A DNA stretch of 35,580 nt, taken from the IMG/VR virus record IMGVR_UViG_3300032167_007519. One strand, written 5' to 3'. Source of the stretch: a virus. Lineage: Duplodnaviria > Heunggongvirae > Uroviricota > Caudoviricetes. The stretch's first letter is position 1; each line of letters starts with the position of its first letter. The translations under genes and the position numbers were made by a program. The notes beneath the pieces were generated by a model. It was not told the DNA's origin, did no database searches, and was given only the letters and a program-made list of their open reading frames with translations. Positions 130 through 22,179 of the stretch are shown in pieces.

Positions 130-690
130 TTACTTCTGTGTAATAACAACAAAGGCTAAAGCTCCATTTGCTGTATAATGACAATTTACATTGTAGTAAG
201 AAGTAGGATTGATATATGCTTCAGAGGTCTTTACACGGTAGTCACCTTTTCCTGCTTTTGCTACTGAAGACATATCAGGGAAGTTCTCTCTTTCGGAAGA
301 TAATACATATACATTATTGATATCATCTAAGTCTGCAAGAGTAAAAGATGCGTTTGGACCAGACTGAGTATATTCCGATACTGTATTATAGGTAATATTT
401 CCGGAGGTATCAGTTTCTTTGTTGGTATATACTAATACATTTACATTAGCAGTGGAGTTTGTTAAACTTTCTACCATGGAAATTACTGCGCTACCCTGAA
501 TGTCTTCTCCATCATAGGAAGTCAGGTCAATAGCATTGATATTTACACCTTCTACTGCGTTTAATACGCCGTCAATGTGTTTTACTGTTACGTCCTTACC
601 ACGATTAAAATAGAATACGGTAAGAGTAATAATTACTGCCAGCAATAAGAATCCTACGCCGGACTTTAAAATGCTCATTACATTTTTCAT
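130..690 (-). CDS. Pilin/pseudopilin-like protein of the Tad-like locus
   Basis: Short basic leader ending KSG, then one hydrophobic helix (VGFLLLAVIITLTVFYF) and a soluble domain; AAAGGAG RBS; position after the TadB/C-like gene. Confidence 0.6.
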   Translation of the reverse strand: MKNVMSILKSGVGFLLLAVIITLTVFYFNRGKDVTVKHIDGVLNAVEGVNINAIDLTSYDGEDIQGSAVISMVESLTNSTANVNVLVYTNKETDTSGNITYNTVSEYTQSGPNASFTLADLDDINNVYVLSSERENFPDMSSVAKAGKGDYRVKTSEAYINPTSYYNVNCHYTANGALAFVVITQK

Positions 691-775
691 ATTGGTTAAG
701 CTCCTTTAGAAAAATTATTTTTTTAAGGCTTTGCCTTTTTTACATGAATAAGTTATGTTTGTTTGAGGACACTTT

Positions 776-1192
776 TTATGGTCCTTGTTTTGTGATGATG
801 ACCTCAGTTGGAACGTTGTTTTTATTATAAACAAGAGATACGAAGTACAAGCCATTTCCATAGATATAAGCATCGTGTCCTGCAGTTCGGAAATTATCTG
901 TGTCTGTAATTGGTTTTGGACCATTTCCATCTCCAGAATCAATCGATACTTTATCGAAAAAGGAAAAGTTCGTTTTTAAATAATTGATAACTTGACTTCC
1001 GTATATCGTACATTGGTCATATCTTGTGATAGGATATAACTCTATCGTTTGTTGCTCTCTTAATTCCTGTTCTTGTAGCTCTGTGGTGACATCACTGACT
1101 CGTCGAAAGGAAGTTATATATAGAATGATAATTGCCATTGTGAGCATAGCTCCCGCACCCATCAATAACATGCGTTTTAAATTGTCACTCAT
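776..1192 (-). CDS. Pilin/pseudopilin-like protein
   Basis: N-terminal hydrophobic helix (MLLMGAGAMLTMAIIILYI); C-terminus ends in a motif resembling that of 130..690 (EVIITKQ vs FVVITQK); AGAAAGGAG RBS. Confidence 0.55.
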   Translation of the reverse strand: MSDNLKRMLLMGAGAMLTMAIIILYITSFRRVSDVTTELQEQELREQQTIELYPITRYDQCTIYGSQVINYLKTNFSFFDKVSIDSGDGNGPKPITDTDNFRTAGHDAYIYGNGLYFVSLVYNKNNVPTEVIITKQGP

Positions 1193-1207
1193 TGCGTTCT
1201 CCTTTCT

Positions 1208-2890
1208 TTAAAACATTGTGTCCATAGAGCTTAATACGCCTAATACGTCTTCCATATCGACAAATGTATAATATACAAACGGAATAATAACGTATAATCC
1301 AAAGGCTAAAATTGCAGGCAGGGAAGAGGAAAATTCTAATAAGTTTCCTTGATTGTCTGCCTTAATATCTGACATAATGTGCCGTTCTTCAATTCCTAAT
1401 TGACGACTCATTTTGAGTTCTTGGAAAGATTGTTCAATACCTAAACGGTCAATGGAAATTAACATATCTACAATATTACTAAATGTTAAATCCCCTTCTC
1501 GTTCGGCAACAGCTTTTAAGCCAGAGAGTGCTTTTGTTTGGTCGTAAGATAGCATGTTTAAACATTCACCAATCGGTAAACGATAATAATTTGCAAGTCT
1601 TTCCATCTTAGATAATAAGTCTGCTAATGTAATCGTTTTACTGTGACGTTCCGAAATCATTAACAATTGGAAAGAGTCAACTTCATTTTCTCGGTCCTTT
1701 TTAAATTGATATTTTAAAAAGAGTACCTGAATTGGGAATGCTAACGCTACTAGCCCACATAAAGGAATTAGAAGTAATTGATTGGAATGAACCGTAGTGT
1801 GATTTTGAATTGCTCCAATCACTACTAAAAATAATCCGGCAAACATTCCAAGAATTGCATCTAATGTCATTTTGGTATAACAAACACTAGGAGGAGCATT
1901 ACAGGCAACTGCTTTTAATTGTTTTACAAACCACCCCTGATTTGTATCTTCAAACCATTGTAATGCGTCTTGTGCCTTGTAATACCATTCTTTTATGGTG
2001 ATGGTCTTTAAATGACGGTATTTAGCTCTGTTTAATGCCTGATATAAGATAAAGGCACTGGCAAGTGTTAATAACTCTACAAACAAACCATATTCCGTAT
2101 AAAAAAGAACCATATCTTCCATGAGTGATAGACCAAACTTTTTGATAACACCCATGGCTAATGCCGGAACCCAGAGTACAAAAGACAATCCTTGTAATCT
2201 GGCATTGTGTTTCTGGCGGTCAATTTTAGACCGAAGCATGTCTACTCGAAATGTCTCTAACGTTTCACAAAATGAGGATACTCCGTTAATATAGGCATCT
2301 CCATGCTCAAAACATTCGTAGCATTGCTGTAAAAACAGTTTTAAATATAAGTTTTTGTCTGCATCTGTAACATAATTGTAAATCTGTTCTTCAGCATTAT
2401 CAGCCGTAAGAATCTCTTCTAAAAATCTTGCTGTCGTCTGAATTTCTCTACTTAAAGAGGTAGCACCCATTTCTAATGCCGTTAAAATAGAACGCTCACT
2501 TTGATAGTAATGGGATACATTCAGGAAAAACGAAGATAATTCTGTGTTAAGCTGATTCGTAAGCTTATTCTGTCGATACAACAAAACTTCATTAAATATG
2601 TAGTAGGCTGCTGCTACACTTGCTACAACTACATAGGGAGTTACGCCAAAAAATACTAGGTTCATTAAAAAGAATATGAAAAAAGAACCTATACAGCCTA
2701 AAATGGCGGCAATTAAAGAGTTTAATGCCATCTGCTCTGCTTCTCTGTCTTCATATGGACAGATGCCTTGATATAATTGCTTTAATACTCTTAATTTTCC
2801 CTTGAAGAATGGAACTCTTGTTAATGGTAAAAATAAACGAATATATTGCTGGCTGGTAACTAATCTGGGATTACCTGCATTCTTACTCAT
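1208..2890 (-). CDS. Pilus assembly inner-membrane platform protein, probable TadB-TadC (two GspF-like domains) fusion
   Basis: 560 aa with several TM clusters and two soluble helical regions; ATGA overlap with the upstream CpaF ATPase (translational coupling). Confidence 0.65.
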   Translation of the reverse strand: MSKNAGNPRLVTSQQYIRLFLPLTRVPFFKGKLRVLKQLYQGICPYEDREAEQMALNSLIAAILGCIGSFFIFFLMNLVFFGVTPYVVVASVAAAYYIFNEVLLYRQNKLTNQLNTELSSFFLNVSHYYQSERSILTALEMGATSLSREIQTTARFLEEILTADNAEEQIYNYVTDADKNLYLKLFLQQCYECFEHGDAYINGVSSFCETLETFRVDMLRSKIDRQKHNARLQGLSFVLWVPALAMGVIKKFGLSLMEDMVLFYTEYGLFVELLTLASAFILYQALNRAKYRHLKTITIKEWYYKAQDALQWFEDTNQGWFVKQLKAVACNAPPSVCYTKMTLDAILGMFAGLFLVVIGAIQNHTTVHSNQLLLIPLCGLVALAFPIQVLFLKYQFKKDRENEVDSFQLLMISERHSKTITLADLLSKMERLANYYRLPIGECLNMLSYDQTKALSGLKAVAEREGDLTFSNIVDMLISIDRLGIEQSFQELKMSRQLGIEERHIMSDIKADNQGNLLEFSSSLPAILAFGLYVIIPFVYYTFVDMEDVLGVLSSMDTMF

Positions 2891-4671
2891 TCAAGAGCAC
2901 CCCCTTCAGGACAACTGGTAGATAGCTGCTGCCTTCCCGGAATATCATCATTCCATTCCTTTAAGGCGATGTAGTCTGCTATACTCATAAATCCTTTTGC
3001 CTTGTTCATAAGAGCAGGACTTAAGGAATTGAGTTTCTTGTATTTTCCGTTCGATAATCTACGGAAAATTGGATTGATTTTATATACAGAAGTTTTATTT
3101 AATTGCTTCTGAATATGGTCTAATCCTTCTTCAATATTAGTTGGTGCTAACATTTCACCAATCTCTGGAATAACTTCATCAATTCCAACAATTCTTGGAA
3201 CACCATCAATTCTTGCAAGTCGAATGTTTAAGTTGATGATTTGCGCCGCTTCTAATTCTGCTAATCGCTCGGAACTGAATCCATGAGCTAGTTTTGCATT
3301 TTTAAAGTCGGCAACCATTTCTTCGGTCTTATTGTGGTGAGAAGTCCAAAAAACTTGAGGTACTACTTTTGCGATGTTACATAAAATGTTTGCTGTCTCA
3401 AGAGAGTTTACTTCTCCTACAGAAAAGATATGTCCGGTAGTTTTTCTTACAAATGCAGAAACTTCTTCTTCTGTGGAATGGTCATCAATCTTATAACTCG
3501 AAGCGTTTCTTCCCGGTAAATAACTTCTAACGTTTAATTCAAAAGAATCTCGTTCAATTACTCGGATGTTCTTATCTGGTTCGGTTTCTCGGAGTAAAGT
3601 TCTAAGTAATGTAGTTTTACCTACTTCCATTCCTCCTGTAACACCAATGTTTGCTCCGGAACGGGCAAATAAACGAACAATAGGATTGATTTCACAATCT
3701 GGGTCAAAACCTTCAAGGTTAACGACAGATACTGTGCCAAATTTTCTGATTAAACCACCCCAAGAATCTTGAAATGGTGGTCTTGCCACTGTAATACGAC
3801 GTCCATCAATGGTATCTGTAATAATCTTTGGATTTGCTTCTGTTAAATCTCCTGCACTGGCATCTTTAATTAAGTTTCTAATAACTCTCTTTAATTCATG
3901 ATTATCAGTAAAGGATAAAAACTTTAAAGCAATGGTTCGTCCATTTACAACAACATGTACTTTGTCTTTTGCATGGTTTCCTAATTGCTCGGTTTTTCCA
4001 CGCATTAGAGAACGATAGTCATACGACTGATTTAATACACCTGCCATACCAATATGGATTTCTTCAATGGTATCTTGCTGGTAATTTAAGGTATCTATAA
4101 CTCCTAATCCATAGATAGAAGCAAATACCATTTGTGTTAAAATTCGAATCTTGTCTGAATAATCTAACTGTAAATCGTGTGAGTCATAATATTGTCTTAA
4201 TTCTTTTTCAGAAATGGATAATGCATTTGGAAAAGCATTGAAAAAAGCTTTGATACTTCCTAAATCTTCCCGTAAGACAACTTTTTTACCCTGCTGTAAT
4301 GGGTTTGTTCTCGCTTCTTTGAATTTGAATTGGTTTTCTAAAGTAATTGGATGATTTACTCGATATACTATTGCTTCAAACATTGTCCAAGGGGTTGCAA
4401 ATTCATCAAACAAAATATAGTTTTCTAAGTTTTTTTCCGTAATAACTTGTTCGATTTTGTCTCGAATAACTTCTTTTGTTAATTCTCTTGCACCAAGGTC
4501 TCCAGAACAACTCTTTCGAATGTTTAGGGCAATTGTCTGAATCTGCTCTTTTTTATCCAGTAACTCTTCTTCGGAAAATCCTAATCCGTTTAGATTCATA
4601 GATGTATAACGATTTACTTCGTCTAACACGTATCTCGTTAATTCACGAAAATTTGTGATTACATCATGCAT
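2887..4671 (-). CDS. cpaF: CpaF/TadA (VirB11-family) pilus assembly ATPase
   Basis: Walker A GGMEVGKTT, Asp box IERDSFEL, Walker B FSVGEV, His box TSHH; GRRITVARPPF motif typical of CpaF. Confidence 0.88.
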   Translation of the reverse strand: MHDVITNFRELTRYVLDEVNRYTSMNLNGLGFSEEELLDKKEQIQTIALNIRKSCSGDLGARELTKEVIRDKIEQVITEKNLENYILFDEFATPWTMFEAIVYRVNHPITLENQFKFKEARTNPLQQGKKVVLREDLGSIKAFFNAFPNALSISEKELRQYYDSHDLQLDYSDKIRILTQMVFASIYGLGVIDTLNYQQDTIEEIHIGMAGVLNQSYDYRSLMRGKTEQLGNHAKDKVHVVVNGRTIALKFLSFTDNHELKRVIRNLIKDASAGDLTEANPKIITDTIDGRRITVARPPFQDSWGGLIRKFGTVSVVNLEGFDPDCEINPIVRLFARSGANIGVTGGMEVGKTTLLRTLLRETEPDKNIRVIERDSFELNVRSYLPGRNASSYKIDDHSTEEEVSAFVRKTTGHIFSVGEVNSLETANILCNIAKVVPQVFWTSHHNKTEEMVADFKNAKLAHGFSSERLAELEAAQIINLNIRLARIDGVPRIVGIDEVIPEIGEMLAPTNIEEGLDHIQKQLNKTSVYKINPIFRRLSNGKYKKLNSLSPALMNKAKGFMSIADYIALKEWNDDIPGRQQLSTSCPEGGALE

Positions 4672-5422
4672 TGGTTACCTCCCGAAGTTTTCCAATCTCT
4701 TGGAAAAAATAAATGGTTTCATCTGTTTTTCCAAGTAACTTTGAAATAACAAGTTTTTCATTTGCCTTGAAAAAACGATTGGTTCTACTGTCTGTAATGG
4801 CATCTGCAAATTCTGTACAATACGGAATTGCATATAGCTTGTTCTTTGGATATCTCTGATTGATTGCTCGTAAATTTAATTTACGTTTTGGGTTGTAGTT
4901 TCCACATAATAACAACATGTTTTCTTCTACTAAACCCTCTGTTAATATCATACTGTTCTGAGAAATTACCATGACGTTGGTATCTGCAGCTTCTTTTACT
5001 GCTTGAGAAACGTCAGAATTTCCAAAGCCAATATCTACAAATACATAGTCGTAATATAATGGAAGCTTCTCTGTAATGATATATTTTAGAATTTCTTCTC
5101 GTTCATCATCCATTCGCTTTGCTGCAGATGGTAATAAGAAGAAGTCTTTATCTAAATGTATCATCGCTTTATCAAGGTCATTCTTTTCTAAGTCTCTTGC
5201 CTTGATGGTATAGCATAAATAGTCTAAGCCAATTCCATCATAGACTGGACGCTTTTCTTCTCCTGAAATGAAGAAATTCTCTAAGGCAGCAAGACTAGAC
5301 TGAGAATGGACTAATACAATACTTTTCTTTTCTTGCTTGATTGCATAGGCCATAGCTACCATAGAGGCAGTTGTTCCACATTGTCCGTGAACTGGGGACT
5401 GAAATGAATAAATTTTTCCCAT
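4664..5422 (-). CDS. ParA/MinD-like (TadZ/CpaE-like) protein with degenerate Walker A
   Basis: N-terminal SPVHGQCGTT P-loop, YDYVFVDIG Walker B region; sits directly upstream of cpaF with overlap. Confidence 0.7.
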   Translation of the reverse strand: MGKIYSFQSPVHGQCGTTASMVAMAYAIKQEKKSIVLVHSQSSLAALENFFISGEEKRPVYDGIGLDYLCYTIKARDLEKNDLDKAMIHLDKDFFLLPSAAKRMDDEREEILKYIITEKLPLYYDYVFVDIGFGNSDVSQAVKEAADTNVMVISQNSMILTEGLVEENMLLLCGNYNPKRKLNLRAINQRYPKNKLYAIPYCTEFADAITDSRTNRFFKANEKLVISKLLGKTDETIYFFQEIGKLREVTNA

Positions 5423-5425: not shown

Positions 5426-6046
5426 TTATTCCTCCTCTACTGTAGTCTCGGGTTCTTCTGTTTCAACAGACTTCTTTGTAAAAACAGGTTTTGTCTTGAT
5501 ATGACGTAATTTCGTATGGGAGGTTCCATTACACCAGTTGAATAAAGATAATAAACAGTCTCTATATGGTTTGGAAAACTGGTCAATCGAAAACTTTGTA
5601 TTCATTCCGAAATGACAATCAATTAAATAATCTCTTTCGTCAGAAACAATTTCATAATGTGTTGCCTGTGGTAAATTTAATTCTGATAAAATGAGACGAT
5701 GACCATATTTCAATCCTGTAGGAACTAATTCTGTAAGGATTACAATGTCTGTTTCTGTCGGAAGTGGCAATTCTCTTAATTCAATAATGTCTCTGTAATA
5801 TGGTCGAAGCGCAATGATTCGATAATCACAAAGCGTGTCGTCATTTACGTAAAATTCATAATCAAACTCTTTTTCGTCGGAATTGAAATAAATTCCATTT
5901 CGTTCCTGATTGTTATCGGTATCGTCAAAAAGAAGTTTGCTATAAATTCCATTTGTATGGATATTTACACTACCTGCTTGCTTAAATAAAGTTGCTAAAC
6001 TTAAGACAAAGGTGTGTGGATACTTTGACGTAATTCCAATTTTCAT
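5426..6046 (-). CDS. Hypothetical protein of the Tad-like operon
   Basis: 206-aa ORF with AGGAG RBS, tightly packed between the SAF-domain gene and the TadZ-like gene. Confidence 0.75.
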   Translation of the reverse strand: MKIGITSKYPHTFVLSLATLFKQAGSVNIHTNGIYSKLLFDDTDNNQERNGIYFNSDEKEFDYEFYVNDDTLCDYRIIALRPYYRDIIELRELPLPTETDIVILTELVPTGLKYGHRLILSELNLPQATHYEIVSDERDYLIDCHFGMNTKFSIDQFSKPYRDCLLSLFNWCNGTSHTKLRHIKTKPVFTKKSVETEEPETTVEEE

Positions 6047-6789: not shown

Positions 6790-6847
6790 AAATCGCTTAT
6801 TAACCCCTTTCAATATTTTTATTGATTTTTATTTTTTTAAATCTAAA

Positions 6848-6877
6848 TATTAGTCACTTTTTGGTTTAATCTGTCGG
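6848..6877 (-). promoter_or_regulatory. Conserved upstream motif copy A (CCGA-CAGA-TTAAACCA-AAAAG-TGACTAATA)
   Basis: One of four intergenic copies; about 60 nt upstream of the first Tad-like gene. Confidence 0.65.
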
Positions 6878-6920: not shown

Positions 6921-6961
6921 AAAATCCAGAAAAATCCACCCCCTAAAATTGAGAGTGGATT
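6921..6961 (-). terminator. Intrinsic terminator after virD4
   Basis: - strand AATCCACTCTC-aatttta-GGGGGTGGATT stem (11 bp, two G-U pairs) followed by TTTCTGGATTTT. Confidence 0.8.
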
Positions 6962-6968
6962 CTTCTTT

Positions 6969-9266
6969 TTAGTTATATGGATAACTATCGTAATCATAAT
7001 CGTCGTCTTCTTCAAAACCTTGGAATCCATATTCGGAATCTTCTGGACTAAATAATTCGACAATCTTTTCTGCAGACAATGGAATGATTTCTGGCCATCC
7101 GGAATCCATTAGTACTTCTTTTACTAATTTTGCTGGCGGAATGGTATATTTGTCTCTGTTGAATGGTATCTTGGTCTCATCTGATGTATATTTATATAAT
7201 GGATGAGTGGTATATGGATGCTTATTGTCAATTAACGGATTTTCTCCGGAAACAATAATAATTTCTTGGGTGTTCGGCAAAGTCTTTACTTCGTCGGCAG
7301 TCATTAAGTCTCTCTGCTTTACTTCAATACCATAGTCTGTTCCAGATTTTAAATTGGTTTGACTTGCTTTTTCCTGAGCATGGGCAATTGTTGCTTTACC
7401 TAAAGATTCAGAAACATATTTTGCAGTTTCATTATCTGCTACCTTTAGAACAAGGTTTACCGGACAGTTACCAAATACAGAGCCCCAGTCTTTGTCATAC
7501 ATGGATTTAATCTGGTTGATATCCTGTAAAATAACGTCACAACTACCGTTATAACCAGCTATAGTCGATAATACGGTTAAAAAGTTTGGGATTTTTCCGA
7601 CGTTGAAAAATTCGTCAATGATAAAACGATTGTGGAATGGGAACATGGTTCCGTGCATGTTCTCTACTTTCATGTGTGCTAAGTCTTTGACAAACTCTTT
7701 TGCTAAGTGTTCATTTGGTCTTGCACTGATTTGTACTCCGTTGGCATCTAAAATATCTATGTAATAAGTAGATGGGTCATTAGCGTTAAAGGTGTTCTTA
7801 TCATAAGCATGTTTTTGATAACGAACAGAAGACATCGCTTTTAATTCGTCTTCAACACGCTGTTCAAACGCTTCTTTTGTTTCTTTTTTCTTCGGTCTCC
7901 AGAAACGTATAAATTCACCATTCTCTAAATGAGCATATTTACAGCCATTTAATTTATTTCCTCTCTTATACATAGAGGTAAATAACTGAGAATACATCAT
8001 ATTTAATAAGAAGTTGAAGGTCTTATCATTTGGATTCATAATAAGGAAAATAGCATCCTTCTGCTCACCAAAACTGTTTAAATCAATATTATTCGAAGAG
8101 GTTAAGTCTCTAATACGGTCAATGGTAAACATATTTAAACGAGTTGTGGTATTCGCTACAATGGTTGCTGCTGTTGGCTGTAATGGGTTTCCTTTAATCT
8201 GGTCCCATGCAATACAACAGTATGGCATTGTATTTGGATGTTTCTCTTTTACTCTACAGAACATTTCATCCAAATAACTTCCTTCCAATGTCGCATTCTG
8301 TGGAACTTTACCTTCACGCTCCATCGCAAGTGCTAATAACAAGTTTACAGAGGCAAAACATGGTTTATAAAGCTTTCCACCAGTTACATAAGCATCTTCA
8401 AACTCTCCGCCTTCTCCATATTTCCATAACAAATAAATACAGGCTCTGAGCAAGGCAAGTGTGGATAAATCCCAGAATGGAGACTCTCCTCCACCTCCAC
8501 CACCTTCTTCTCCACCAAGTTTGGTAGCGTCCATTAACTGTTGCGCTAATGTAGCTACTTCTTCTTCACTGGTGATATATTTGAATGGATTGTATGTATT
8601 ACAACGTACTTTGTCAAAAATATCAAATACTCGTACTTTATAACCAAAAGCTTGTAATACCGGACCGACAGCTTCTAATAATTCACCTTTCGGGTCTGTC
8701 ACTACATAGTTACAGTTCATTTGTAAAATATTGGGTTTTACAAAGAATCTGGATTTACCAGAACGGGTTGCACCAAGAATAACCATGTTTAACGCCGTCT
8801 GATGATAATAAATTTCAGTACTGATACGAATATTTTTGGATAAAATCATATCTTTGTAGTGGTCTGGCTCTTTTGGATTTTCAGATAAGGAATATCTTGC
8901 ATTAAATTCTCTTATCTTTCCCCATTGAGCAGTACCTGCTTCAGTTGTAATATCATCTGTAATTCTGGTATAGCCTCGGACTGCTAAATAGGCCATAACT
9001 ACAGCTAACAAAAAGACAATAGTTAAAGATAAACTTTGTGGAGGTGCAAAGACTGTTTCCGTTAGTGGATGAGAACTTAACCATGCACTGAACTTATTAA
9101 AAGAACTATGTCGGTTAAAATAAACACTTAAAATATTGGAAACAAAATAAGTTGCAATCGCTGATACTACCATAACAACAACGACACTTTGTAAATATGC
9201 CCGCTGTTTTTGCTTTATGGTAGTATTCATTTTAAATTCTTTTCTTTGAGGTTTCTTTTTTGCCAT
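6969..9266 (-). CDS. virD4: VirD4/TraG-family type IV coupling protein
   Basis: Two N-terminal TMs, GTAQWG motif, Walker A VILGATRSGKSRFFVKPN, VTDPKGEL, Walker B IIDEF, acidic tail. Confidence 0.93.
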   Translation of the reverse strand: MAKKKPQRKEFKMNTTIKQKQRAYLQSVVVVMVVSAIATYFVSNILSVYFNRHSSFNKFSAWLSSHPLTETVFAPPQSLSLTIVFLLAVVMAYLAVRGYTRITDDITTEAGTAQWGKIREFNARYSLSENPKEPDHYKDMILSKNIRISTEIYYHQTALNMVILGATRSGKSRFFVKPNILQMNCNYVVTDPKGELLEAVGPVLQAFGYKVRVFDIFDKVRCNTYNPFKYITSEEEVATLAQQLMDATKLGGEEGGGGGGESPFWDLSTLALLRACIYLLWKYGEGGEFEDAYVTGGKLYKPCFASVNLLLALAMEREGKVPQNATLEGSYLDEMFCRVKEKHPNTMPYCCIAWDQIKGNPLQPTAATIVANTTTRLNMFTIDRIRDLTSSNNIDLNSFGEQKDAIFLIMNPNDKTFNFLLNMMYSQLFTSMYKRGNKLNGCKYAHLENGEFIRFWRPKKKETKEAFEQRVEDELKAMSSVRYQKHAYDKNTFNANDPSTYYIDILDANGVQISARPNEHLAKEFVKDLAHMKVENMHGTMFPFHNRFIIDEFFNVGKIPNFLTVLSTIAGYNGSCDVILQDINQIKSMYDKDWGSVFGNCPVNLVLKVADNETAKYVSESLGKATIAHAQEKASQTNLKSGTDYGIEVKQRDLMTADEVKTLPNTQEIIIVSGENPLIDNKHPYTTHPLYKYTSDETKIPFNRDKYTIPPAKLVKEVLMDSGWPEIIPLSAEKIVELFSPEDSEYGFQGFEEDDDYDYDSYPYN

Positions 9267-10756: not shown

Positions 10757-10772
10757 ATATTACCTCCTGTGG

Positions 10773-11477: not shown

Positions 11478-11586
11478 GGTTGAGTTTTCCTTTCGTAATA
11501 CCTCTTTAAGAGAATGTTACCTCCTTGTATCTATTCCCTTTAGAGAGGATTTATTTTTGTTGTTTATTGTTTCATATAGGAGAACA

Positions 11587-13736: not shown

Positions 13737-13753
13737 TTTGTTACTCCTTTGGT

Positions 13754-16700
13754 TTAGTTCACGACCACAGAACGGTCACATAAGTTTAATTCTTCTTCAC
13801 TTATCATCGTAATGCGTAATAAATGGTCATTAGAGAAATCTCCATAAGCAGGCGGAGAATATACTACACAATAATAATATTTTTCTCCGGCTCCCCAGTT
13901 ACCTATGTTTGTATCACTGGAATTAACCTCACAAATAACGTAAATATACGTATAGTTCTCATAATTGGTTTCCCATGTTGCGACATTTTCATATTTTTCG
14001 TGGGTAGCTAGGTGATTTTTTGCTAAAAGCATATTCTCACCAATGGTTAAATTGTCTCCATTTTTTCCTTGCATAGAACCATAATAAATATGATAAGCGG
14101 CATTATTAGTTATGCTTTGAAGAAAAATATTAAAGACATCTGTTGGAGAATAGGAACGACCACTTCCTAATCTGCCCGCAGTTTCTTCTATAGCGTCTAC
14201 AGCACTTATTAACCTTGTGCTATTTGTTTCTAAAACTTTTTCACTGATTGCTCCATTGTTGAAATATAAGCCCATCTCATCATGGAAGTAATCAATAGCA
14301 GCTTGATAACCATCATGATACGTTCCTACAGCATAGGTTAATTGTTTTGGGTCAATTGCCCATTCCCAAGCATAACTATCTGCATATGGTTGTTCCCGGT
14401 CATAAAAACCCCAACCATTTCTAAAGGTAGGTGTCTCTCCGTCCATAGTGAAAACATCCCAAATAAATGGAGATAAATAATCTGTAGCTAAGGCATTTCC
14501 CTCTAAATAGTGGGTTTGTACTTTATAATGGTCTAATAATTTGTCATATAAATCAAAGTCAATTCCATCTACTCTGGTTTTATACCGAAGTAAACCATCT
14601 AAATTATTTGGGTCGACTTGGCTAAGGTTTGTTGCTTCATTTAATCTATCAAGGGTAGTACCTGAGGTGATAAACGTAAAATTGGCAACTAAACTGTCAA
14701 CAAATTCTCTATTCGGTCCAGCAAGAGCACCAGTGAGTTGAGTCAATGGTTTGTAGGTAGCTCCTAAAGAATTTCGAAGCTTAAAATCATTTACAAGGGA
14801 TGTGTATAAACTAGCTCCACTATAAAAAATAGCTTTTGTACTATTATCTCCATAGTTCTTGTAAAGCTTTGCTTCATTTTTTCCGGTACCATAGTGTGTA
14901 TTTGCAATATATTCATTATAAAAATCTAAACGACTAAAATCATAAGTGGCATTTGGATGAGTAATACGATTCCACCAAGGGCCTAAACAGGTATCTACCC
15001 ATTCGTCAAAGTTTTGTTCTAAGGTACCAGTCCATTGCAATACATCTTCGCCATATGTTAAAGATTCTTTTGTAAAAATTAAATTATCTCTTTTTACAAT
15101 ATTTAAGACATCCATATAACATTTTACGGTTCTTTGTGGTGTAACATGGCTTGGACAATGGCCATTACAGGTAATTCGTACATGATAACATGGTGTTGTA
15201 ATCGAATCTTCTGTTTCTGTAACAGGGAAAGCCTTATGTGAGTGAAGTGGTTTTGTACATACTAATCTACTAGAATATCCAACAATTCTCCCGTTTCTGT
15301 ATCTAGGATAGCTTCTATAGCAACTGCTAGTATGCTGTGGATGATGAGCTAATGTACATTTTAATTTACTGGTAACTTCATATTCATAATCATCACAAAT
15401 GTTCTTTCTATCTCTTGGTTTAGAATCTAATGTAGGTTCATGTTTATAACTTCTACAACCACAATCTTCTACAAAATCTAAATGAGCTTCATAGTCTGGA
15501 ACGCCTTCTTCAATTTCTACCGTATGTGTTTTCCAATACATTACTTTTGCATAAGCACTGGCAGCTACATAAGAGCCATGGTCAATTTCTGCTCCAGTAC
15601 GATATTTAAAAGCTGCCATAATTGGAAGCACATTATTTCCATTTGGAATATCATGACTATTTTCATCGATAAAATAAACTTTGGCATCTTCAAGGTCTAA
15701 ATGGACATCCCATTTATGTGATTCATATTTTGCTTTGTCATAAATAGGGTCTCCAGTTTCCTCATCATGGTCGCAGTAGTAATTTACAATCTCATTTTTA
15801 ACAGAAAAAACATACATCTTATCTAATGTATTTAGATTGTTAATGGCATTTTGAGCGTATTCTGGCATTACAGAAGAGAAAATACCTGCAATAGCGATTA
15901 CTAATGGAATTATTGCAACAGCGATAACTCCAATGGCAATTGTTGCAACAGCAAATTTAAAATAAGCTATAGCTCCTGCTTTTAAGAGACTTGCTCCCAT
16001 TTTCATTGCCCATTGCTGGAACTTTGCTTTTAAACCAAAAAACTTACCTAGTGCTTTTCCAAGTTTACTATTGTTTAATTTGCCTAAAAGCTTTCCTTTT
16101 ATCGTATCGTCAAATTTTGTTCTTGGTTTTGTTGGAGGAGTCTGTGAACCCCACTTGGAACGGTCTGTACCATATTTTTTTGTCTGACGCTTTTCAAAAC
16201 GTTTTTGAGCTCGAAGCTCACGGACGTCCTGTTTTCCGTAATATCTCTCGGCAGCACTGCTAGACTTAGTTCTATCTTTAGCTTTCTTCATACTTTCTCG
16301 ATAAGCTTGAGTAGAAGCGTCTTTACTTTTTTCTAACCAACGATTATAAGAAATGTCATAGACTTTTTTACCTGCTTTTCCTCCCATACTAAGAAGATTG
16401 ATAGCAGGCGCCAAGTCTCCTGTCAAAAAAGATAATGCTCGGATAGCCGCATCTTGGCGGAACATTCCTGTGCTTTGCGTCAGCTCTCCATAATTTTCAA
16501 AGATTTTTGATAGTTCTTCTAATCCTTCTTCATCAAAAACTGCAGTAGGGTCGAGCATCTTTTCTTTTAGTGGTATATGTTGTTCTCTTGCAATACGGAT
16601 ATCGTCTCCGGCATAAAAAGAGGTCCGTTGTGTAGTATCTTTTGTCTCTATAGCTTTTGCTGAATCTGATAAATAATCTACTTCAATAGTTCCTGAATCG

Positions 16701-17671
16701 TCTGAAGAAGGAATATTGTCGGAATCGTCTTCAATATCTATATCTCTTGGATTTTGAGCACTGGTATCATTAGATGAATTTCGGCCTTGATTTTCTTCTT
16801 CTTCTTTTTCTTCTCGTTTATTTCGAGCAAGAGCTTCTCTGGAAGCTTCCATAGCTTTTTTAAAATCTGCCATGGTTGCGTTAGGATGCTCTTCCATGAA
16901 TTTTCTAACAGAAGCGTTATTTGCTTTTAATTCAGATAGATGCTTGCTACGAACTGTCTCAACCATTAACGATTTCGTTTCTGCAGAATAGGTATGACGG
17001 TCTTCAGCTAATAGTTGTGCCGCATTTAATGCTTCTTGACTACATTCTACTCTTCTTGGAACTTTGTTCTGAGATAAGTAATTTTGTAGCTGAGCTCGTA
17101 CAATAGCACTATTTGTTTCATCTAATTGAAGATGATATTGTGTATTTAAATCGCTAATTAAATTTTTTAAGCTTTGGTCAGAAGATAATGTTCCGTTTTG
17201 TTCTGCATCTAACCATGCTTGAATCTGAGACGCTTCTTCCGTGGACAATGTCTTTTCATAAATTACAAATCCTTGACGGAAAACATCTTCTTCTGTAAGT
17301 CCAGCACTTTTATAAGGACCAATTTCACTTTCTAAGAAGTTTCTGGTTTCTTGATAATATTCTTGGACTAAAATAGCTTGGTCAGCATCCGACATTCGGT
17401 CAAATACTTCTGTATTTGTGATGGTTTGATAGTCTGCAGAAAGAAGCGAAGCCATACTAATTTTTTGGTCTGCTTTTTGTATTACTTGCACTTCTTCTGC
17501 TTGTTTTACAGAACTATCATCAACATACTCTTTGGCAATCGCAGCGACTCGGTCTGAACCGTCTGTACTTTTCCATGTGCGGTTCATCTGTTGCAATTGC
17601 TGATACGTTTTTTGCATGTCTTGCTCATTATTTTGTTGGGATGAACTACGTGGATTTTCCTGTTCTGCCAT
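13754..17671 (-). CDS. Large membrane-anchored T4SS component in the position of the VirB1-like/CD1108-like gene
   Basis: Directly follows virB4; charged N-terminal half, one hydrophobic segment near aa 570-600, Cys/His-rich segment, C-terminal possible CAP/SCP-like domain. Confidence 0.6.
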   Translation of the reverse strand: MAEQENPRSSSQQNNEQDMQKTYQQLQQMNRTWKSTDGSDRVAAIAKEYVDDSSVKQAEEVQVIQKADQKISMASLLSADYQTITNTEVFDRMSDADQAILVQEYYQETRNFLESEIGPYKSAGLTEEDVFRQGFVIYEKTLSTEEASQIQAWLDAEQNGTLSSDQSLKNLISDLNTQYHLQLDETNSAIVRAQLQNYLSQNKVPRRVECSQEALNAAQLLAEDRHTYSAETKSLMVETVRSKHLSELKANNASVRKFMEEHPNATMADFKKAMEASREALARNKREEKEEEENQGRNSSNDTSAQNPRDIDIEDDSDNIPSSDDSGTIEVDYLSDSAKAIETKDTTQRTSFYAGDDIRIAREQHIPLKEKMLDPTAVFDEEGLEELSKIFENYGELTQSTGMFRQDAAIRALSFLTGDLAPAINLLSMGGKAGKKVYDISYNRWLEKSKDASTQAYRESMKKAKDRTKSSSAAERYYGKQDVRELRAQKRFEKRQTKKYGTDRSKWGSQTPPTKPRTKFDDTIKGKLLGKLNNSKLGKALGKFFGLKAKFQQWAMKMGASLLKAGAIAYFKFAVATIAIGVIAVAIIPLVIAIAGIFSSVMPEYAQNAINNLNTLDKMYVFSVKNEIVNYYCDHDEETGDPIYDKAKYESHKWDVHLDLEDAKVYFIDENSHDIPNGNNVLPIMAAFKYRTGAEIDHGSYVAASAYAKVMYWKTHTVEIEEGVPDYEAHLDFVEDCGCRSYKHEPTLDSKPRDRKNICDDYEYEVTSKLKCTLAHHPQHTSSCYRSYPRYRNGRIVGYSSRLVCTKPLHSHKAFPVTETEDSITTPCYHVRITCNGHCPSHVTPQRTVKCYMDVLNIVKRDNLIFTKESLTYGEDVLQWTGTLEQNFDEWVDTCLGPWWNRITHPNATYDFSRLDFYNEYIANTHYGTGKNEAKLYKNYGDNSTKAIFYSGASLYTSLVNDFKLRNSLGATYKPLTQLTGALAGPNREFVDSLVANFTFITSGTTLDRLNEATNLSQVDPNNLDGLLRYKTRVDGIDFDLYDKLLDHYKVQTHYLEGNALATDYLSPFIWDVFTMDGETPTFRNGWGFYDREQPYADSYAWEWAIDPKQLTYAVGTYHDGYQAAIDYFHDEMGLYFNNGAISEKVLETNSTRLISAVDAIEETAGRLGSGRSYSPTDVFNIFLQSITNNAAYHIYYGSMQGKNGDNLTIGENMLLAKNHLATHEKYENVATWETNYENYTYIYVICEVNSSDTNIGNWGAGEKYYYCVVYSPPAYGDFSNDHLLRITMISEEELNLCDRSVVVN

Positions 17672-17688
17672 AGAATACTCCTTCTATT

Positions 17689-20133: not shown

Positions 20134-20170
20134 AGTATTTGAGTCTCCTGTTTATTCACCATATCTACAG

Positions 20171-20554
20171 TTATTTCTTTTTCTTGCAAACTGCTAATGG
20201 TTTATTTTTATTGTTTAACTTTAAAGGATTCTTTTTTCTGTTTAATCGTAAAGATGCTGGACTAATTCGATAACGTTTTGGTGGATTCATAAAGTTATCT
20301 TTCCACATCTCTGGCAAAATCTTTTCTAAAGGAAGTCCATAAATTGGTACAAACCCAATTGCAATTGGAATAATCGCCGGAATAGCACTGAGATAAATAC
20401 GTGCTTCTATTGATTGGTCTTTTAATAAAGAAATAGAAATACAAATCAATGCTCCTGCGACTACAACAGAAATTAACTGTCTGGACGTTAAGCCCCAGAA
20501 AAGTTTTGGCTTATAAGATTTTATATTTTTGGGTATATATCTACTTACCGCCAT
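20171..20554 (-). CDS. prgI: PrgI-family (VirB3-like) protein
   Basis: IPKNIKSYKPKLFWGLTSRQL N-terminus, two TMs, YGLPLEK, basic tail; directly upstream of virB4. Confidence 0.88.
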   Translation of the reverse strand: MAVSRYIPKNIKSYKPKLFWGLTSRQLISVVVAGALICISISLLKDQSIEARIYLSAIPAIIPIAIGFVPIYGLPLEKILPEMWKDNFMNPPKRYRISPASLRLNRKKNPLKLNNKNKPLAVCKKKK

Positions 20555-20582
20555 AACTTGTAAATTCCTTTCTTATAGGAGG

Positions 20583-21662
20583 TTAAACACCTACTATATC
20601 ATTACAAATTTGTCCTGATTTAAATAAAACAACAATGGCACCAAGACCTAGACCAGCTAATGGAATAATGTTGCCGAGAACAGTTGTTAGAGCTACAACA
20701 AGAGCATCATCACCTGACCCGGTAATTTCAATTAAGGCATTTCGTTCTTCCTCTATAAAAGTGTCTACGCCTTCAATGATGTTTCGGATTTGACTTTCAT
20801 AAACTTCTGGTGCGATATCCTCATAATGACCTTCTTCATAAGCCATTCCATCTCCAACAGTATCTGTATTTCCTCTGATATTTGTTTGGATGCAGGCAAT
20901 AGATGCCGCTGTATAAATTGTTGCAATCGCTGCAAACATTCCGCCTTGGAGAGATACTGCTAAAAATTTCTTTAAATAACGAACAGCACCTTGCTTAAAA
21001 CTGGAATCTGCAGAGATACCAATCGCAATTCCAACTCCGACTGCTCGAACAGCCGCTTCAATCATTCTGGAAAAATTGGCGATATAGGCACAAAGTCGTA
21101 TGATAAGACCTAATACGGCAGCTAATACCATAATGACAAAACTACCAATGAGTAATCCAAAAATGGCACCAAAACTCATATCTCCTGTAAGGGATACTTC
21201 AACGGCGGCTGCCATACTTCCGTCTCCAGTAACATTTTTTATTTGAGCGGCAAGTAAAAATCCAAAGCTCCATAAAGCCGCAATTAAGGTCCTTGCATTG
21301 ATGAGTAACGCCACGGTTCCGAAATATTGTAAAAATGGCTTGATAAAGGTCTCTAATGACATCTTTTCTTGCATGTAGGTATCAACCATGCCGATAATCA
21401 TAAAAATAAGAGCAAAACAAACACCAAAACTGCTTCCTACTTCAATTAACGGGTCTATGGCACCGTCAACTACTTTAAACTCGTTTCCAACTAATTCGAG
21501 CTTTGGCATAATGCCATAATCATCAGAAAAGGCGGTAGAAAAATCGGATAGCTTGAAATATAATTCAAAACATGAGTTTAATGCTTTTTGGGCGGCATCT
21601 CTTAACGCATCTGCAATGCCGTCTAAGACACCACCAAGAATAACTGGCTGGAAGAAACTCAT
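20583..21662 (-). CDS. VirB6-like polytopic membrane protein
   Basis: About 6-7 TMs; SRMIEAAVRAVGVGIAIG...YLKKFLAVSLQG matches the Firmicute VirB6-like signature region; upstream of prgI. Confidence 0.8.
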   Translation of the reverse strand: MSFFQPVILGGVLDGIADALRDAAQKALNSCFELYFKLSDFSTAFSDDYGIMPKLELVGNEFKVVDGAIDPLIEVGSSFGVCFALIFMIIGMVDTYMQEKMSLETFIKPFLQYFGTVALLINARTLIAALWSFGFLLAAQIKNVTGDGSMAAAVEVSLTGDMSFGAIFGLLIGSFVIMVLAAVLGLIIRLCAYIANFSRMIEAAVRAVGVGIAIGISADSSFKQGAVRYLKKFLAVSLQGGMFAAIATIYTAASIACIQTNIRGNTDTVGDGMAYEEGHYEDIAPEVYESQIRNIIEGVDTFIEEERNALIEITGSGDDALVVALTTVLGNIIPLAGLGLGAIVVLFKSGQICNDIVGV

Positions 21663-21705
21663 AATTACCTCCTACTTCTTTGTTTGTGATTACATAATGA
21701 GAAAT

Positions 21706-21727
21706 AGGGAGGAGTTTCCCCCTCCCC
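21706..21727 (-). terminator. GC-rich hairpin after the VirB2-like gene (weak terminator or mRNA stabiliser)
   Basis: GGGGAGGGG-GAAA-CTCCTCCCT; 9-bp stem with G-U pairs and GNRA loop on the - strand; only a weak U-tract (ATTTCTC). Confidence 0.6.
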
Positions 21728-21735
21728 TTATAGGC

Positions 21736-22179
21736 TTAGTCACCAATAGATTCGTTGTAAGTATCCCAGCTCTCACCCGGATACATCTGTTCAAATGCAA
21801 TTCTGCTAATGGTATTTCCAAGTAATGCACGGATTAAGATAAGACCTACACCAACAGCTAAAATAAGTAATGGACCTGTAATAGACTGTTCGTTAAATCT
21901 ATTGATAAATAACAGAATGATACCGACAATTACTAAAATAACACCTACTACTACGATGATAGGGAAGATGATATTTAATACAGCTTCGGTAGTCTTCCAT
22001 AATGCATAACCTGTTTCAGCTCCAGTAGAACCTGCAAATGCTGCTACACCAATACCGCTGGTAAGAAGAGATAACATATATACAAAGCTAATCATCTTCT
22101 TGTTTTTCATGACAACGTCGGATGCTTGGAGCATTACTGCGTTTAAACGCATAAATAACTGATTCATAAAATTTTTCAT
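21736..22179 (-). CDS. VirB2-like/Maff2-like small membrane protein (putative T4SS pilin)
   Basis: Long leader ending AAFA, then two hydrophobic helices separated by a short charged loop (NRFNEQS); first gene of the T4SS cluster. Confidence 0.65.
   Translation of the reverse strand: MKNFMNQLFMRLNAVMLQASDVVMKNKKMISFVYMLSLLTSGIGVAAFAGSTGAETGYALWKTTEAVLNIIFPIIVVVGVILVIVGIILLFINRFNEQSITGPLLILAVGVGLILIRALLGNTISRIAFEQMYPGESWDTYNESIGD

What the first reader, a model, noticed from the sequence alone, without database searches (positions are those of the whole stretch)
130..22179. Gram-positive T4SS physically coupled to a Tad-like pilus operon
A Tad-like locus (SAF protein, TadZ-like, CpaF, fused TadB/C-like, pilins) begins about 180 bp downstream of virD4, on the same strand. 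Well-studied Firmicute conjugation systems (pCF10, pIP501, pCW3, pLS20, ICEBs1, Tn916) rely on adhesins or wall hydrolases rather than a dedicated type IV pilus. T4SS plus type IV pilus pairing is established for Gram-negative IncI1 plasmids (R64 thin pilus, liquid mating). This may be a monoderm gut-anaerobe counterpart that uses a retractile pilus to capture recipients. I cannot tell how widespread or previously reported it is.
Basis: partly seen in the sequence, partly recalled or inferred. Interest (0 to 1): 0.75.

Follow-up and report, generated by a model that had tools for sequence, protein, structure and literature searches.

The report
Tad-like pilus operon beside plasmid T4SS
A large plasmid-like element from gut or rumen Clostridia carries a complete but very divergent Tad-type pilus operon directly after its conjugation (type IV secretion) genes, yet the pilus operon is a self-contained unit that in most bacteria occurs without any conjugation genes, so a role as a dedicated mating pilus is possible but not shown.

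Summary
On the minus strand, a Gram-positive T4SS (PrgI, CD1110-type VirB4, CD1115-type VirD4) is followed after 155 bp by a Tad-like module. The module has a SAF protein, two ParA/MinD-like proteins, a CpaF-like ATPase, a fused two-domain platform protein and pilin-like genes. It runs past the window start.

- The gap holds a 16-bp-stem terminator and the element's own promoter motif, so these are two transcription units.
- VirD4 sits just upstream in 5 of 6 element relatives (52-71% ATPase identity).
- The wider module family is mostly chromosomal: 0 of 80 species-genome loci have VirB4 or VirD4 within 10 kb.
- Of the 60 plasmids with the most similar VirD4, only one also carries the ATPase (1,223 plasmids match in all).

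Precedents exist:
- pXO2/pAW63 tra regions hold a TadA-like ATPase (published as "VirB11") beside TadB/C-like genes.
- C. botulinum pCLJ has a Tad-like locus.
- Cutibacterium acnes plasmids have conjugation genes upstream of a tad locus.
- This scan has already noted T4SS-plus-Tad clusters on other DNA (RF39 gut Bacilli).

What looks new is the module subtype: its platform is invisible to Pfam, its pilins lack the Flp motif, and no peptidase gene lies in the module. Verdict: a new variant of a known kind, of moderate interest.

The parts
23911..23932 (-). Element-type promoter-like motif (TTAAACCA-N-CTAATA) at the head of the 262-aa / 189-aa / T4SS operon
   Evidence: 3 copies in the window against 0.00 expected by chance; its position is seen
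21736..22179 (-). Small polytopic membrane protein, first gene of the T4SS block (function not assigned)
   Evidence: 3-4 hydrophobic segments; no Pfam family
20583..21662 (-). Polytopic membrane protein, VirB6-like candidate by position only
   Evidence: many hydrophobic segments; no family hit
20171..20554 (-). PrgI-family protein (VirB3-like)
   Evidence: PF12666, 54.2 bits
17689..20133 (-). VirB4-like conjugation ATPase, CD1110 family
   Evidence: NF045971, 653.9 bits (cut-off 325)
9278..17671 (-). Five T4SS-operon genes without any family hit (1305, 567, 148, 234 and 492 aa), conserved in order in relative L005
   Evidence: (25-58% identity in L005)
6969..9266 (-). VirD4-like coupling protein, CD1115 family
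   Evidence: NF045973, 350.8 bits (cut-off 250); T4SS-DNA_transf at 1e-58
6928..6966 (-). Intrinsic-terminator-like hairpin (16 pairs followed by a T run) directly after the virD4 stop codon
   Evidence: an equivalent hairpin lies in L005
6848..6869 (-). Element-type promoter-like motif in front of the Tad-like operon
   Evidence: a variant is conserved in L005
6061..6813 (-). Membrane-anchored SAF-domain protein (CpaB/RcpC-like by position and domain)
   Evidence: SAF in 14 of 26 family members; the pCLJ counterpart hits RcpC weakly
5426..6046 (-). Degenerate ParA/MinD-like protein without a P-loop
   Evidence: hhalign probability 78% to the TadZ-like family
4664..5422 (-). ParA/MinD-fold protein, TadZ/CpaE-like, with an atypical Walker A
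   Evidence: family profile against ParA, CooC and MinD structures, 5e-4
2887..4671 (-). TadA/CpaF-like secretion ATPase with an N-terminal extension of about 230 aa
   Evidence: CpaF is the only PDB match; Walker A GKTT, Walker B GE and the His-box H invariant in 24 relatives
1208..2890 (-). Fused two-domain platform protein (TadB+TadC-like, FlaJ-like)
   Evidence: (pLDDT 91)
776..1192 (-). Pilin-like protein (138 aa): short N-terminus, then a hydrophobic helix
130..690 (-). Pilin-like protein (186 aa), major-pilin candidate: N-terminal 45-residue helix plus a small alpha/beta head
   Evidence: no structural match to known pilins
1..37 (-). Start of a 182-aa paralog of the 186-aa pilin-like gene. 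The operon continues outside the window with genes of 47, 112, 123 and 214 aa

Best explanation
The region consists of two neighbouring backbone operons of a conjugative, ParM-partitioned megaplasmid-like element of gut or rumen Lachnospiraceae-type Clostridia.

Operon 1 is a Gram-positive T4SS of the CD1110/CD1115 (Tn1549/CTn4-like) type and ends with virD4.

Operon 2 starts after a terminator and the element's own promoter motif. It is an autonomous, strongly divergent Tad-like type IV filament machine.

Inferred mechanism, by homology with Tad and archaeal pili:
- The hexameric CpaF-like ATPase docks on the fused FlaJ-like platform.
- It extracts pilin-like subunits from the membrane by their N-terminal hydrophobic helices and polymerises them.
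- The two ParA-like proteins position or scaffold the motor.
- The membrane-anchored SAF protein forms a collar through the wall.
- Leader cleavage, if it happens, needs a peptidase encoded elsewhere.

The product is most likely an adhesive surface filament. On this element it probably helps the host cells attach or aggregate. That could assist mating in liquid gut contents, but the filament is not an integral part of the T4SS.

Shown: the gene identities, the two-unit layout, and the distribution of the family. Inferred: filament formation, adhesion, and any contribution to transfer.
For: Module identity:
- ATPase: CpaF is the only PDB sequence match, and the catalytic motifs are invariant across 24 relatives.
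- Platform: AF2 model at pLDDT 91. Foldseek hits MJ1286, FlaJ and pXO2-22. AFDB cluster rows 3-21 are almost all GspF/TadB-domain proteins at probability 0.98-1.00, and both halves of the protein match. PilC, EpsF and TcpE domains score Z 6.3-7.5. The family profile hits the split TadB/C-like pair of pCLJ.
- Accessory proteins: SAF and ParA fold.
- Pilin-like genes: six conserved small genes share N-termini. Relatives show K-(A/G) followed by L, as in the pCLJ pilins (KKGG then LS). The model shows a 45-residue helix plus a head.

Autonomy:
- Terminator and promoter motif lie in the gap.
- The family is large: 814 representative platform proteins and at least 174 species genomes.
- The SAF-ATPase-platform core is conserved, yet no VirB4 or VirD4 lies within 10 kb in 80 of 80 loci.
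- Chromosomal sites are conserved beside enolase and cation-ATPase genes.
- The window's ATPase nests inside a Lachnospiraceae clade.

Adhesion context: giant LRR_5, Flg_new, SLH or DUF5704 surface proteins follow the module in most relatives.

RNA-library presence: contigs from a bovine gut metatranscriptome library lie on the pilin-like, platform, ATPase and SAF genes of a close relative. This is weak evidence, because RNA libraries can hold DNA.
Against: - No filament, processing or adhesion has been observed.
- No prepilin peptidase gene lies in the window or in any module locus.
- The pilin-like proteins lack the Flp G/XXXXEY motif and Glu5.
- Their head domain has no structural match.
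- The VirD4 adjacency persists to 52% ATPase identity in this element family. Family members sit on T4SS-bearing megaplasmids in 5 of 5 tested. Both facts fit a conjugation-linked role at least as well.
- This element lacks the giant adhesin genes that follow the module elsewhere.
Confidence: 0.6

Rival explanations
1. Dedicated mating pilus. The Tad-like filament is a conjugation accessory of this element, a monoderm counterpart of the IncI1/R64 thin pilus. It captures recipients in liquid, and the tandem variable pilin paralogs set recipient range.
For: - VirD4 lies directly upstream on the same strand in the window and in 5 of 6 relatives at 52-71% ATPase identity.
- The T4SS and Tad-like operons carry the same promoter motif.
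- Family members occur on megaplasmids that also encode VirB4 (5 of 5). In C. argentinense pRSJ17_1 the module lies 14 kb downstream of VirB4 on the same strand.
- Independent Tad-like modules occur in the pXO2/pAW63 tra regions and on conjugative pCLJ.
- Two pilin paralogs have identical ends and a divergent centre.
Against: - The module is a separate transcription unit.
- 0 of 80 species-genome loci have T4SS genes within 10 kb.
- The distance to VirB4 is 60-110 kb in three Bacilli plasmids.
- One relative has NrdD genes, not VirD4, upstream.
- 1,223 plasmids carry this VirD4 family, but only 1 of the 60 best also has the ATPase.
- Synteny within one plasmid family may only reflect a conserved backbone.
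- The same promoter motif also heads the parM operon.
Confidence: 0.25
2. A pseudopilus-type export or display machine, working like a T2SS, for large surface proteins rather than a long pilus. The small proteins form a short piston, and the usual substrates are the giant proteins encoded downstream in most relatives.
For: - Giant secreted proteins (LRR_5, Flg_new, SLH or DUF5704; 1,000-3,000 aa) follow the module in chromosomal and plasmid relatives.
- There are many minor-pilin-like genes and no clear Flp-type major pilin.
Against: - Monoderms have no outer membrane to cross.
- This element has no giant protein gene after the module.
- The tandem, diversifying 186- and 182-aa genes look like a major subunit exposed to selection.
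Confidence: 0.1
3. The ATPase is a VirB11-type component of the T4SS, and its neighbours are T4SS accessory proteins.
For: - The Pfam T2SSE family also covers VirB11.
- The pAW63 homologue was published as VirB11 (PMC1196294).
Against: - The only PDB matches are CpaF, and the best NCBIfam rows are TadA and PilB types.
- It is always paired with a GspF/TadB-fold platform, a SAF protein and pilin-like genes.
- The set occurs mostly without any T4SS.
Confidence: 0.03

Closest known systems
Tad (type IVc) pilus systems, e.g. Caulobacter CpaB-CpaE-CpaF-CpaG-CpaH and monoderm Tad loci (Bifidobacterium breve; C. botulinum pCLJ locus)
   Same: - Gene order: SAF/CpaB-like, ParA-like TadZ/CpaE, CpaF/TadA ATPase, platform, then several pilin-like genes.
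- The ATPase motifs are present.
- The platform fold matches.
- The pCLJ ATPase and its split platform pair are detectable homologues.
   Different: - The platform is one fused 560-aa protein that Pfam T2SSF does not recognise.
- The ATPase has a long N-terminal extension and barely passes the T2SSE cut-off (25.1 against 24.9 bits).
- There is a second, P-loop-less ParA-like gene.
- The pilins lack the Flp G/XXXXEY motif.
- No TadV peptidase gene lies in the module.
Archaeal type IV pili and archaellum platform proteins (FlaJ, MJ1286)
   Same: The platform has a fused two-domain architecture. The best reviewed-protein fold matches are MJ1286 (probability 1.0) and M. voltae FlaJ (0.92). The pilin N-termini lack Glu5, as in archaeal pilins.
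   Different: The hosts are bacterial. SAF and ParA-like partners are present. No FlaH, FlaF, FlaG or FlaX-type genes are present.
tra region of pAW63 / pXO2 / pBT9727 (Bacillus cereus group), with the 'VirB11' ATPase
   Same: A secretion ATPase of the T2SSE family, next to TadB/C-like membrane proteins and tiny hydrophobic proteins, sits on a Gram-positive conjugative plasmid together with VirB4 and VirD4.
   Different: - There the trio is embedded inside the tra operon, directly upstream of the VirB2-like and VirB6-like genes, and has no SAF or TadZ-like genes.
- The relation is distant: 18.6 bits for the single sequence and 31.6 bits for the profile.
- Here the module is a full, separately transcribed Tad-like operon.
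Cutibacterium acnes linear plasmids (p15.1.R1, p09-9) with conjugation genes upstream of a tad locus (PMC5696575)
   Same: A Gram-positive plasmid carries VirB4-, TcpC- and FtsK-like transfer genes directly upstream of a tad locus. A pilin was detected on the cell surface.
   Different: That case is a canonical Flp-type tad locus in an actinobacterial host, with a different transfer gene set.
IncI1 plasmid R64 thin pilus (type IVb, pil operon with the PilV shufflon)
   Same: The concept is the same: a type IV filament encoded beside a conjugative T4SS and used for liquid mating. R64 has variable adhesin tips; this element has tandem variable pilin paralogs.
   Different: It belongs to a different filament family (T4bP with a secretin, in diderms). 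The function is proven there and untested here. No shufflon was seen here.

Membership tests
Tad / type IVc filament system | TadA/CpaF-family hexameric secretion ATPase with Walker A, Asp box, Walker B and His box | tested here: met
   CpaF is the only PDB sequence match, at 3e-7. T2SSE scores 25.1 bits. TIGR03819 (TadA type) is the best NCBIfam row, but far below its cut-off. GKTT, FEL, GE and H are invariant in 24 relatives.
Tad / type IVc filament system | Polytopic platform protein(s) with the T2SSF (GspF/TadB/TadC) fold, two domains per machine | tested here: met
   The feature is met by fold. AF2 pLDDT is 91. AFDB clusters give GspF/TadB-domain proteins at probability 0.98-1.00 for both halves. 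FlaJ and MJ1286 match. PilC 2whn scores Z 7.5, rmsd 3.1, with 101 of 103 residues aligned, and EpsF scores Z 7.4. By sequence, Pfam T2SSF is hit by only 1 of 54 family members.
Tad / type IVc filament system | TadZ/CpaE: ParA/MinD-fold protein with an atypical Walker A | tested here: inconclusive
   The ParA/MinD fold is supported. The family profile hits ParA, CooC and MinD structures at 5e-4, and the single sequence hits MinD at 6e-4. No specific TadZ match was obtained. The N-terminal motif is G-x-x-G-T-T.
Tad / type IVc filament system | CpaB/RcpC: membrane-anchored SAF domain plus an RcpC domain | tested here: inconclusive
   The SAF domain is present (26.9 bits; 14 of 26 relatives), as is an N-terminal hydrophobic segment. 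PF16976 RcpC was not detected in this family. It is weakly hit by the pCLJ counterpart.
Tad / type IVc filament system | Flp-type pilin with the G/XXXXEY processing motif | tested here: not met
   None of the small proteins has this motif or a Glu at +5. Relatives instead show K-(A/G) followed by L, as in the pCLJ pilins.
Tad / type IVc filament system | Dedicated prepilin peptidase (TadV, Peptidase_A24) | tested here: not met
   No A24 hit was found among the window's ORFs. tblastn with the pCLJ peptidase gave no hit in the window or in the 92 loci held at that point, apart from pCLJ itself. The rest of the roughly 165-kb element and the host genome could not be searched.
Gram-positive conjugative T4SS (CD1110/CD1115 type, MPF_FA-like) | VirB4-family ATPase | tested here: met
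   NF045971, 653.9 bits against a cut-off of 325.
Gram-positive conjugative T4SS (CD1110/CD1115 type, MPF_FA-like) | VirD4-type coupling protein | tested here: met
   NF045973, 350.8 bits against a cut-off of 250. The Pfam T4SS-DNA_transf match is at 1e-58.
Gram-positive conjugative T4SS (CD1110/CD1115 type, MPF_FA-like) | Relaxase and cell-wall hydrolase | tested here: inconclusive
   No relaxase or hydrolase family was detected in any window ORF scanned. The 1305-aa protein has no family hit. The rest of the element was not available.
VirB11 ATPase of T4SS | An ATPase closest to VirB11 that occurs as part of T4SS loci | tested here: not met
   The PDB matches are CpaF only. The gene is always paired with a platform and pilin-like genes, and T4SS genes are absent within 10 kb in 80 of 80 loci.
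R64-type conjugative thin pilus (T4bP) | A requirement for liquid mating, and PilV-type adhesin variation | not testable with these tools
   This needs mating assays. Only the analogy of variable tandem pilin paralogs was seen.

The most novel reading that the evidence does not exclude
This element family has recruited a chromosomal Lachnospiraceae Tad-like filament as a true conjugative mating pilus. That would be a monoderm, anaerobe counterpart of the R64 thin pilus. The tandem pilin paralogs, with identical assembly helices and divergent exposed centres, would set recipient specificity. If so, large Firmicute megaplasmids that software now calls 'non-mobilizable' would spread in liquid gut contents by pilus-assisted conjugation.
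Probability: 0.2. Interest if true: 0.75.

Novelty: new variant of a known kind. Interest (0 to 1): 0.45.

Why it matters
- **An unrecognised Tad-like subtype.** The work defines a large and apparently unnamed subtype of Tad-like machines in gut and soil Firmicutes. It has 814 representative platform proteins and occurs in at least 174 species genomes. Standard domain models miss it.
- **Effect on annotation.** Such loci are annotated as rows of hypothetical proteins, and the megaplasmids that carry them are scored as non-mobilizable.
- **Relevance to conjugation.** If the filament aids mating, it would bear on how very large plasmids move between anaerobes in liquid habitats. These include relatives of the module on toxin-bearing clostridial plasmids, mentioned here only descriptively.
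- **Limit on the reasoning.** Gene adjacency inside one plasmid family is weak evidence of functional coupling.

Tried and rejected
Searches and folds that gave nothing usable:
- Megablast of 22 kb against PLSDB: no match.
- The ATPase against the phage collection: no match.
- VirD4 patterns in IMG/VR: no relative. The ATPase family there gave only 3 distant loci, which were not followed.
- Platform protein against Pfam and PDB by sequence (single sequence, 10-row profile and 54-row profile): nothing meaningful.
- Foldseek of the whole platform model against PDB: nothing.
- BLASTP between the two halves of the platform protein: no significant similarity.
- Pilin model against PDB (Foldseek and VIA): only generic long-helix alignments, archaellins among them at the same Z of about 5.3 as unrelated coiled coils.
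- Complex prediction on four copies of the 186-aa protein: no verdict, score 0.00.
- Single-sequence PDB searches for the SAF protein, the TadZ-like protein and the 206-aa protein: nothing.
- The SAF family profile hit only FlgA.
- The whole genome of the window was not available, so a peptidase, a relaxase and the rest of the element could not be searched.

RNA library: the contigs left virD4 uncovered between 6862 and 9003. Missing cover in contigs proves nothing, so I draw no conclusion about differential expression from it.

Readings rejected:
- VirB11: see the rival explanations.
- Phage-encoded structure: T4SS and ParM are present and no phage record matched.
- Archaellum-like motility: no FlaH, FlaF or FlaG-type genes.
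- Competence pilus: no ComEA or ComEC genes nearby.

Full report
**1. What is in the window**

All genes of the finding lie on the minus strand.

The upstream block is a Gram-positive T4SS:
- a small polytopic protein (21736-22179);
- a polytopic VirB6-like candidate (20583-21662);
- PrgI (20171-20554; PF12666);
- VirB4 (17689-20133; NF045971, CD1110 family, 653.9 bits against a cut-off of 325);
- five conserved genes without any family hit (9278-17671);
- VirD4 (6969-9266; NF045973, CD1115 family, 350.8 bits).

The block after virD4 reads as follows:
- a membrane-anchored SAF protein (6061-6813);
- a P-loop-less ParA-like protein (5426-6046);
- a ParA/MinD-fold TadZ-like protein (4664-5422);
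- a 594-aa secretion ATPase (2887-4671);
- a 560-aa polytopic protein (1208-2890);
- small proteins of 138 and 186 aa, each with a short N-terminus followed by a hydrophobic helix.

A near-identical metagenomic contig (L012) shows that the operon continues beyond the window start. It carries a 182-aa paralog and then genes of 47, 112, 123 and 214 aa. A RuvC-like gene and an HTH gene follow.

**2. Is it really Tad-like?**

*ATPase.* It passes Pfam T2SSE only marginally (25.1 bits). Its only sequence matches among solved structures are the three CpaF entries, at 3e-7. Walker A (GKTT), the Asp-box FEL, Walker B (GE) and the His-box histidine are invariant across 24 relatives that go down to 23% identity.

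*Platform.* The 560-aa protein has no sequence match to Pfam or PDB, even as a 54-row profile. Its family is large, with 814 representatives at 50% clustering. An AlphaFold2 model built on that alignment is confident (pLDDT 91).
- In Swiss-Prot AFDB the model matches MJ1286 (probability 1.0), the archaellum platform FlaJ (0.92) and B. anthracis pXO2-22 (1.0).
- In the AFDB clusters, rows 3-21 are almost all GspF-domain or TadB proteins at probability 0.98-1.00. Separate single-domain proteins match residues 33-290 and residues 270-554.
- Among solved chains, the PilC N-domain (Z 7.5, rmsd 3.1, 101 of 103 residues), EpsF (Z 7.4), the PilC model 3jc8 (Z 7.1) and TcpE (Z 6.3) all appear. These Z values are middling for helical proteins, and I count them only as agreeing with the Foldseek result.
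- The language-model search points the same way.

The closest architecture is the archaeal fused FlaJ type.

*TadZ-like proteins.* The TadZ-like family profile hits ParA, CooC and MinD structures at 5e-4. The 206-aa family is a degenerate relative of it.

*SAF protein.* The SAF domain is found in 14 of 26 family members, but the RcpC domain is not detected.

*Pilin-like proteins.*
- Their order is conserved across relatives: about 140 aa, about 150-186 aa (sometimes duplicated), about 45-60 aa, about 110-160 aa, about 123-440 aa and about 215-340 aa.
- In the larger clade, several paralogs per locus begin with the same short leader. It ends in K-A or K-G and is followed by L and a hydrophobic stretch.
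- This resembles the pilin-like proteins of the pCLJ Tad-like locus, which have KKGG followed by LS. That plasmid does encode an A24 peptidase.
- The Flp motif and Glu5 are absent.
- The model of the 186-aa protein has a 45-residue N-terminal helix and a small alpha/beta head (pLDDT 67.5). Its head matches nothing solved.
- No peptidase gene lies in the window or in any module locus.

I conclude that this is a Tad-like type IV filament machine of a divergent subtype. Two defining Tad features, the Flp motif and a cognate peptidase, are not met locally.

**3. Is it coupled to the T4SS?**

*Transcription.* The 155-bp gap after virD4 holds a 16-pair hairpin followed by a T run (6966-6928). It also holds a motif, TTAAACCA-N-CTAATA, at 6848-6869. 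That motif recurs at the head of the T4SS-containing operon (23911-23932) and of the parM operon (34032-34053). Three copies are found against 0.00 expected by chance. A 66%-identical relative keeps both a terminator hairpin and a motif variant in its gap. The two modules are therefore adjacent transcription units that use the element's common promoter type. This fits earlier notes of this scan on an element-wide promoter.

*Close relatives.* VirD4 lies directly upstream, with a gap of 113-191 bp, in relatives at 66%, 69%, 70% and 52% ATPase identity and in the near-identical contig L012. One 52% relative has anaerobic ribonucleotide reductase genes there instead.

*Wider family.*
- At least 174 species-representative genomes encode the ATPase family.
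- In the best 80 loci the SAF-ATPase-platform core is conserved.
- None of those 80 has a detectable VirB4 or VirD4 within 10 kb. The same search did detect the 23%-identical VirD4 of pCLJ, so it was sensitive enough.
- Several loci are plainly chromosomal, such as the complete Anaerocolumna and Anaeromicropila chromosomes.
- In uncultured Lachnospiraceae the module occupies a conserved site next to argininosuccinate lyase, enolase and a cation ATPase.

*ATPase tree.* The window and its element relatives form a small subclade nested within the Lachnospiraceae clade. This suggests exchange between these elements and Lachnospiraceae chromosomes. The direction is not resolved, because the tree is rooted only on the long pCLJ branch.

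*Plasmids.*
- 48 PLSDB records, all of 100 kb or more, carry a homologue. They come from Clostridium, Paenibacillus, Lysinibacillus, Butyrivibrio and others, and all are typed non-mobilizable.
- All five plasmids tested encode a VirB4-like gene.
- That gene lies 14 kb (C. argentinense pRSJ17_1) or 26 kb (Butyrivibrio pCY186) from the module ATPase. In pBsph, pSP10-266k and pPPM1a the distance is 60-110 kb.
- Conversely, the VirD4 family is found on 1,223 plasmids. Of the 60 best matches, only the Cohnella herbarum plasmid is also on the ATPase list.

The T4SS family clearly works without the module, and the module clearly exists without a T4SS. The adjacency here is a stable trait of one element family. 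Synteny within a plasmid backbone is not independent evidence of function.

**4. Context that bears on function**

In most relatives the module is followed by very large secreted proteins carrying LRR_5, Flg_new, SLH or DUF5704 domains. On plasmids it is accompanied by GGDEF or HD-GYP genes. The window itself has an HD-domain gene at 27402-28061. This points to a surface-adhesion system that may be under cyclic-di-GMP control.

The element studied here lacks the giant genes. It has instead two tandem major-pilin candidates that are identical over the first 91 residues and similar at the C-terminus, with a divergent centre.

The stretch is present in at least six animal faecal metagenomes. A bovine gut metatranscriptome library holds contigs at 90-97% identity that lie on the pilin-like, platform, ATPase and SAF genes. 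This is weak evidence of expression, because RNA libraries can contain DNA.

**5. Comparison with what is known**

- The pAW63 paper reported "VirB11, VirB4 and VirD4" homologues (PMC1196294).
- In pXO2 that ATPase (T2SSE, 90.7 bits) is followed by proteins of 277 and 249 aa. The 249-aa protein corresponds in length and position to Swiss-Prot pXO2-22, which the fold search matched to the platform's second half. Tiny hydrophobic proteins come next, directly upstream of VirB2-like, VirB6-like and VirB4 genes.
- pCLJ is experimentally conjugative (PMC2884020). It has a CpaB-like gene, an ATPase, a split platform pair, pilin-like genes and an A24 peptidase, with a CD1115-type VirD4 13 kb away.
- C. 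acnes plasmids carry VirB4-, TcpC- and FtsK-like genes directly upstream of a tad locus whose pilin was detected on cells (PMC5696575).
- The T4SS classification papers and the type IV filament survey do not discuss such pairings.
- This scan has noted T4SS-plus-Tad clusters before on other DNA, in RF39 gut Bacilli and a high-GC Bacillota lineage. I used those notes as leads and checked only the pXO2 comparison myself.

The pairing is therefore not new in kind. The module subtype and its embedding in this element family appear to be undescribed.

**6. Verdict**

- Best reading (0.6): an autonomous, divergent Tad-like filament operon that sits next to the T4SS operon in a megaplasmid backbone. 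It probably serves adhesion or aggregation, with at most an auxiliary role in mating.
- The dedicated mating-pilus reading remains open (0.25).
- Novelty: a new variant of a known kind.
- Interest: 0.45.

Noticed in passing
window 1-690 and L012:7585-8786: Two tandem pilin-like paralogs (186 and 182 aa) are identical over the first 91 residues and similar at the C-terminus (YINP motif). They differ completely in the central segment of about 60 residues. This pattern suggests diversifying selection or gene conversion on an exposed region.
   Followed up: partly
window 27402-28061; L002, L003, L011: An HD-domain (HD-GYP-like) gene lies in the window. GGDEF or HD-GYP genes accompany the Tad-like module on C. 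argentinense, Paenibacillus and metagenomic relatives. This hints at cyclic-di-GMP control of the module.
   Followed up: no
PLSDB records (e.g. L001, L002, L009-L011): All 48 megaplasmids that carry the module are typed 'non-mobilizable' by MOB-suite. Yet all five tested encode VirB4-like genes. Several also have a TraM-recognition-domain coupling protein and 'replication-relaxation' genes near ParM, so their mobility may be under-called.
   Followed up: partly
L004, L007, L009-L011, L014, L030-L032: In most chromosomal and plasmid relatives the module is followed by giant secreted proteins of 1,000-3,000 aa with LRR_5, Flg_new, SLH or DUF5704 domains. The element studied here lacks them.
   Followed up: partly
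window 13754-17671: A 1305-aa protein in the middle of the T4SS operon has no Pfam or NCBIfam hit. It sits where Gram-positive T4SSs usually encode a large cell-wall hydrolase, and it has two central hydrophobic segments.
   Followed up: no
L014:1755-3566: The Lachnospiraceae contig closest to the window's subclade carries a second, different T2SSE-family ATPase (603 aa) about 6 kb upstream of the module, beside a canonical ParA gene.
   Followed up: no
window 23911-23932, 34032-34053, 6848-6869: The same oriented promoter-like motif heads the T4SS-containing operon, the parM/bactofilin operon and the Tad-like operon. This implies one regulator or sigma factor for the backbone functions of the element.
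   Followed up: partly
L012:10367-10876: A 169-aa RuvC-like protein (by its N-terminal motif only) and an HTH regulator directly follow the last pilin-like gene. The same pair follows the module in relatives L005 and L097.
   Followed up: no
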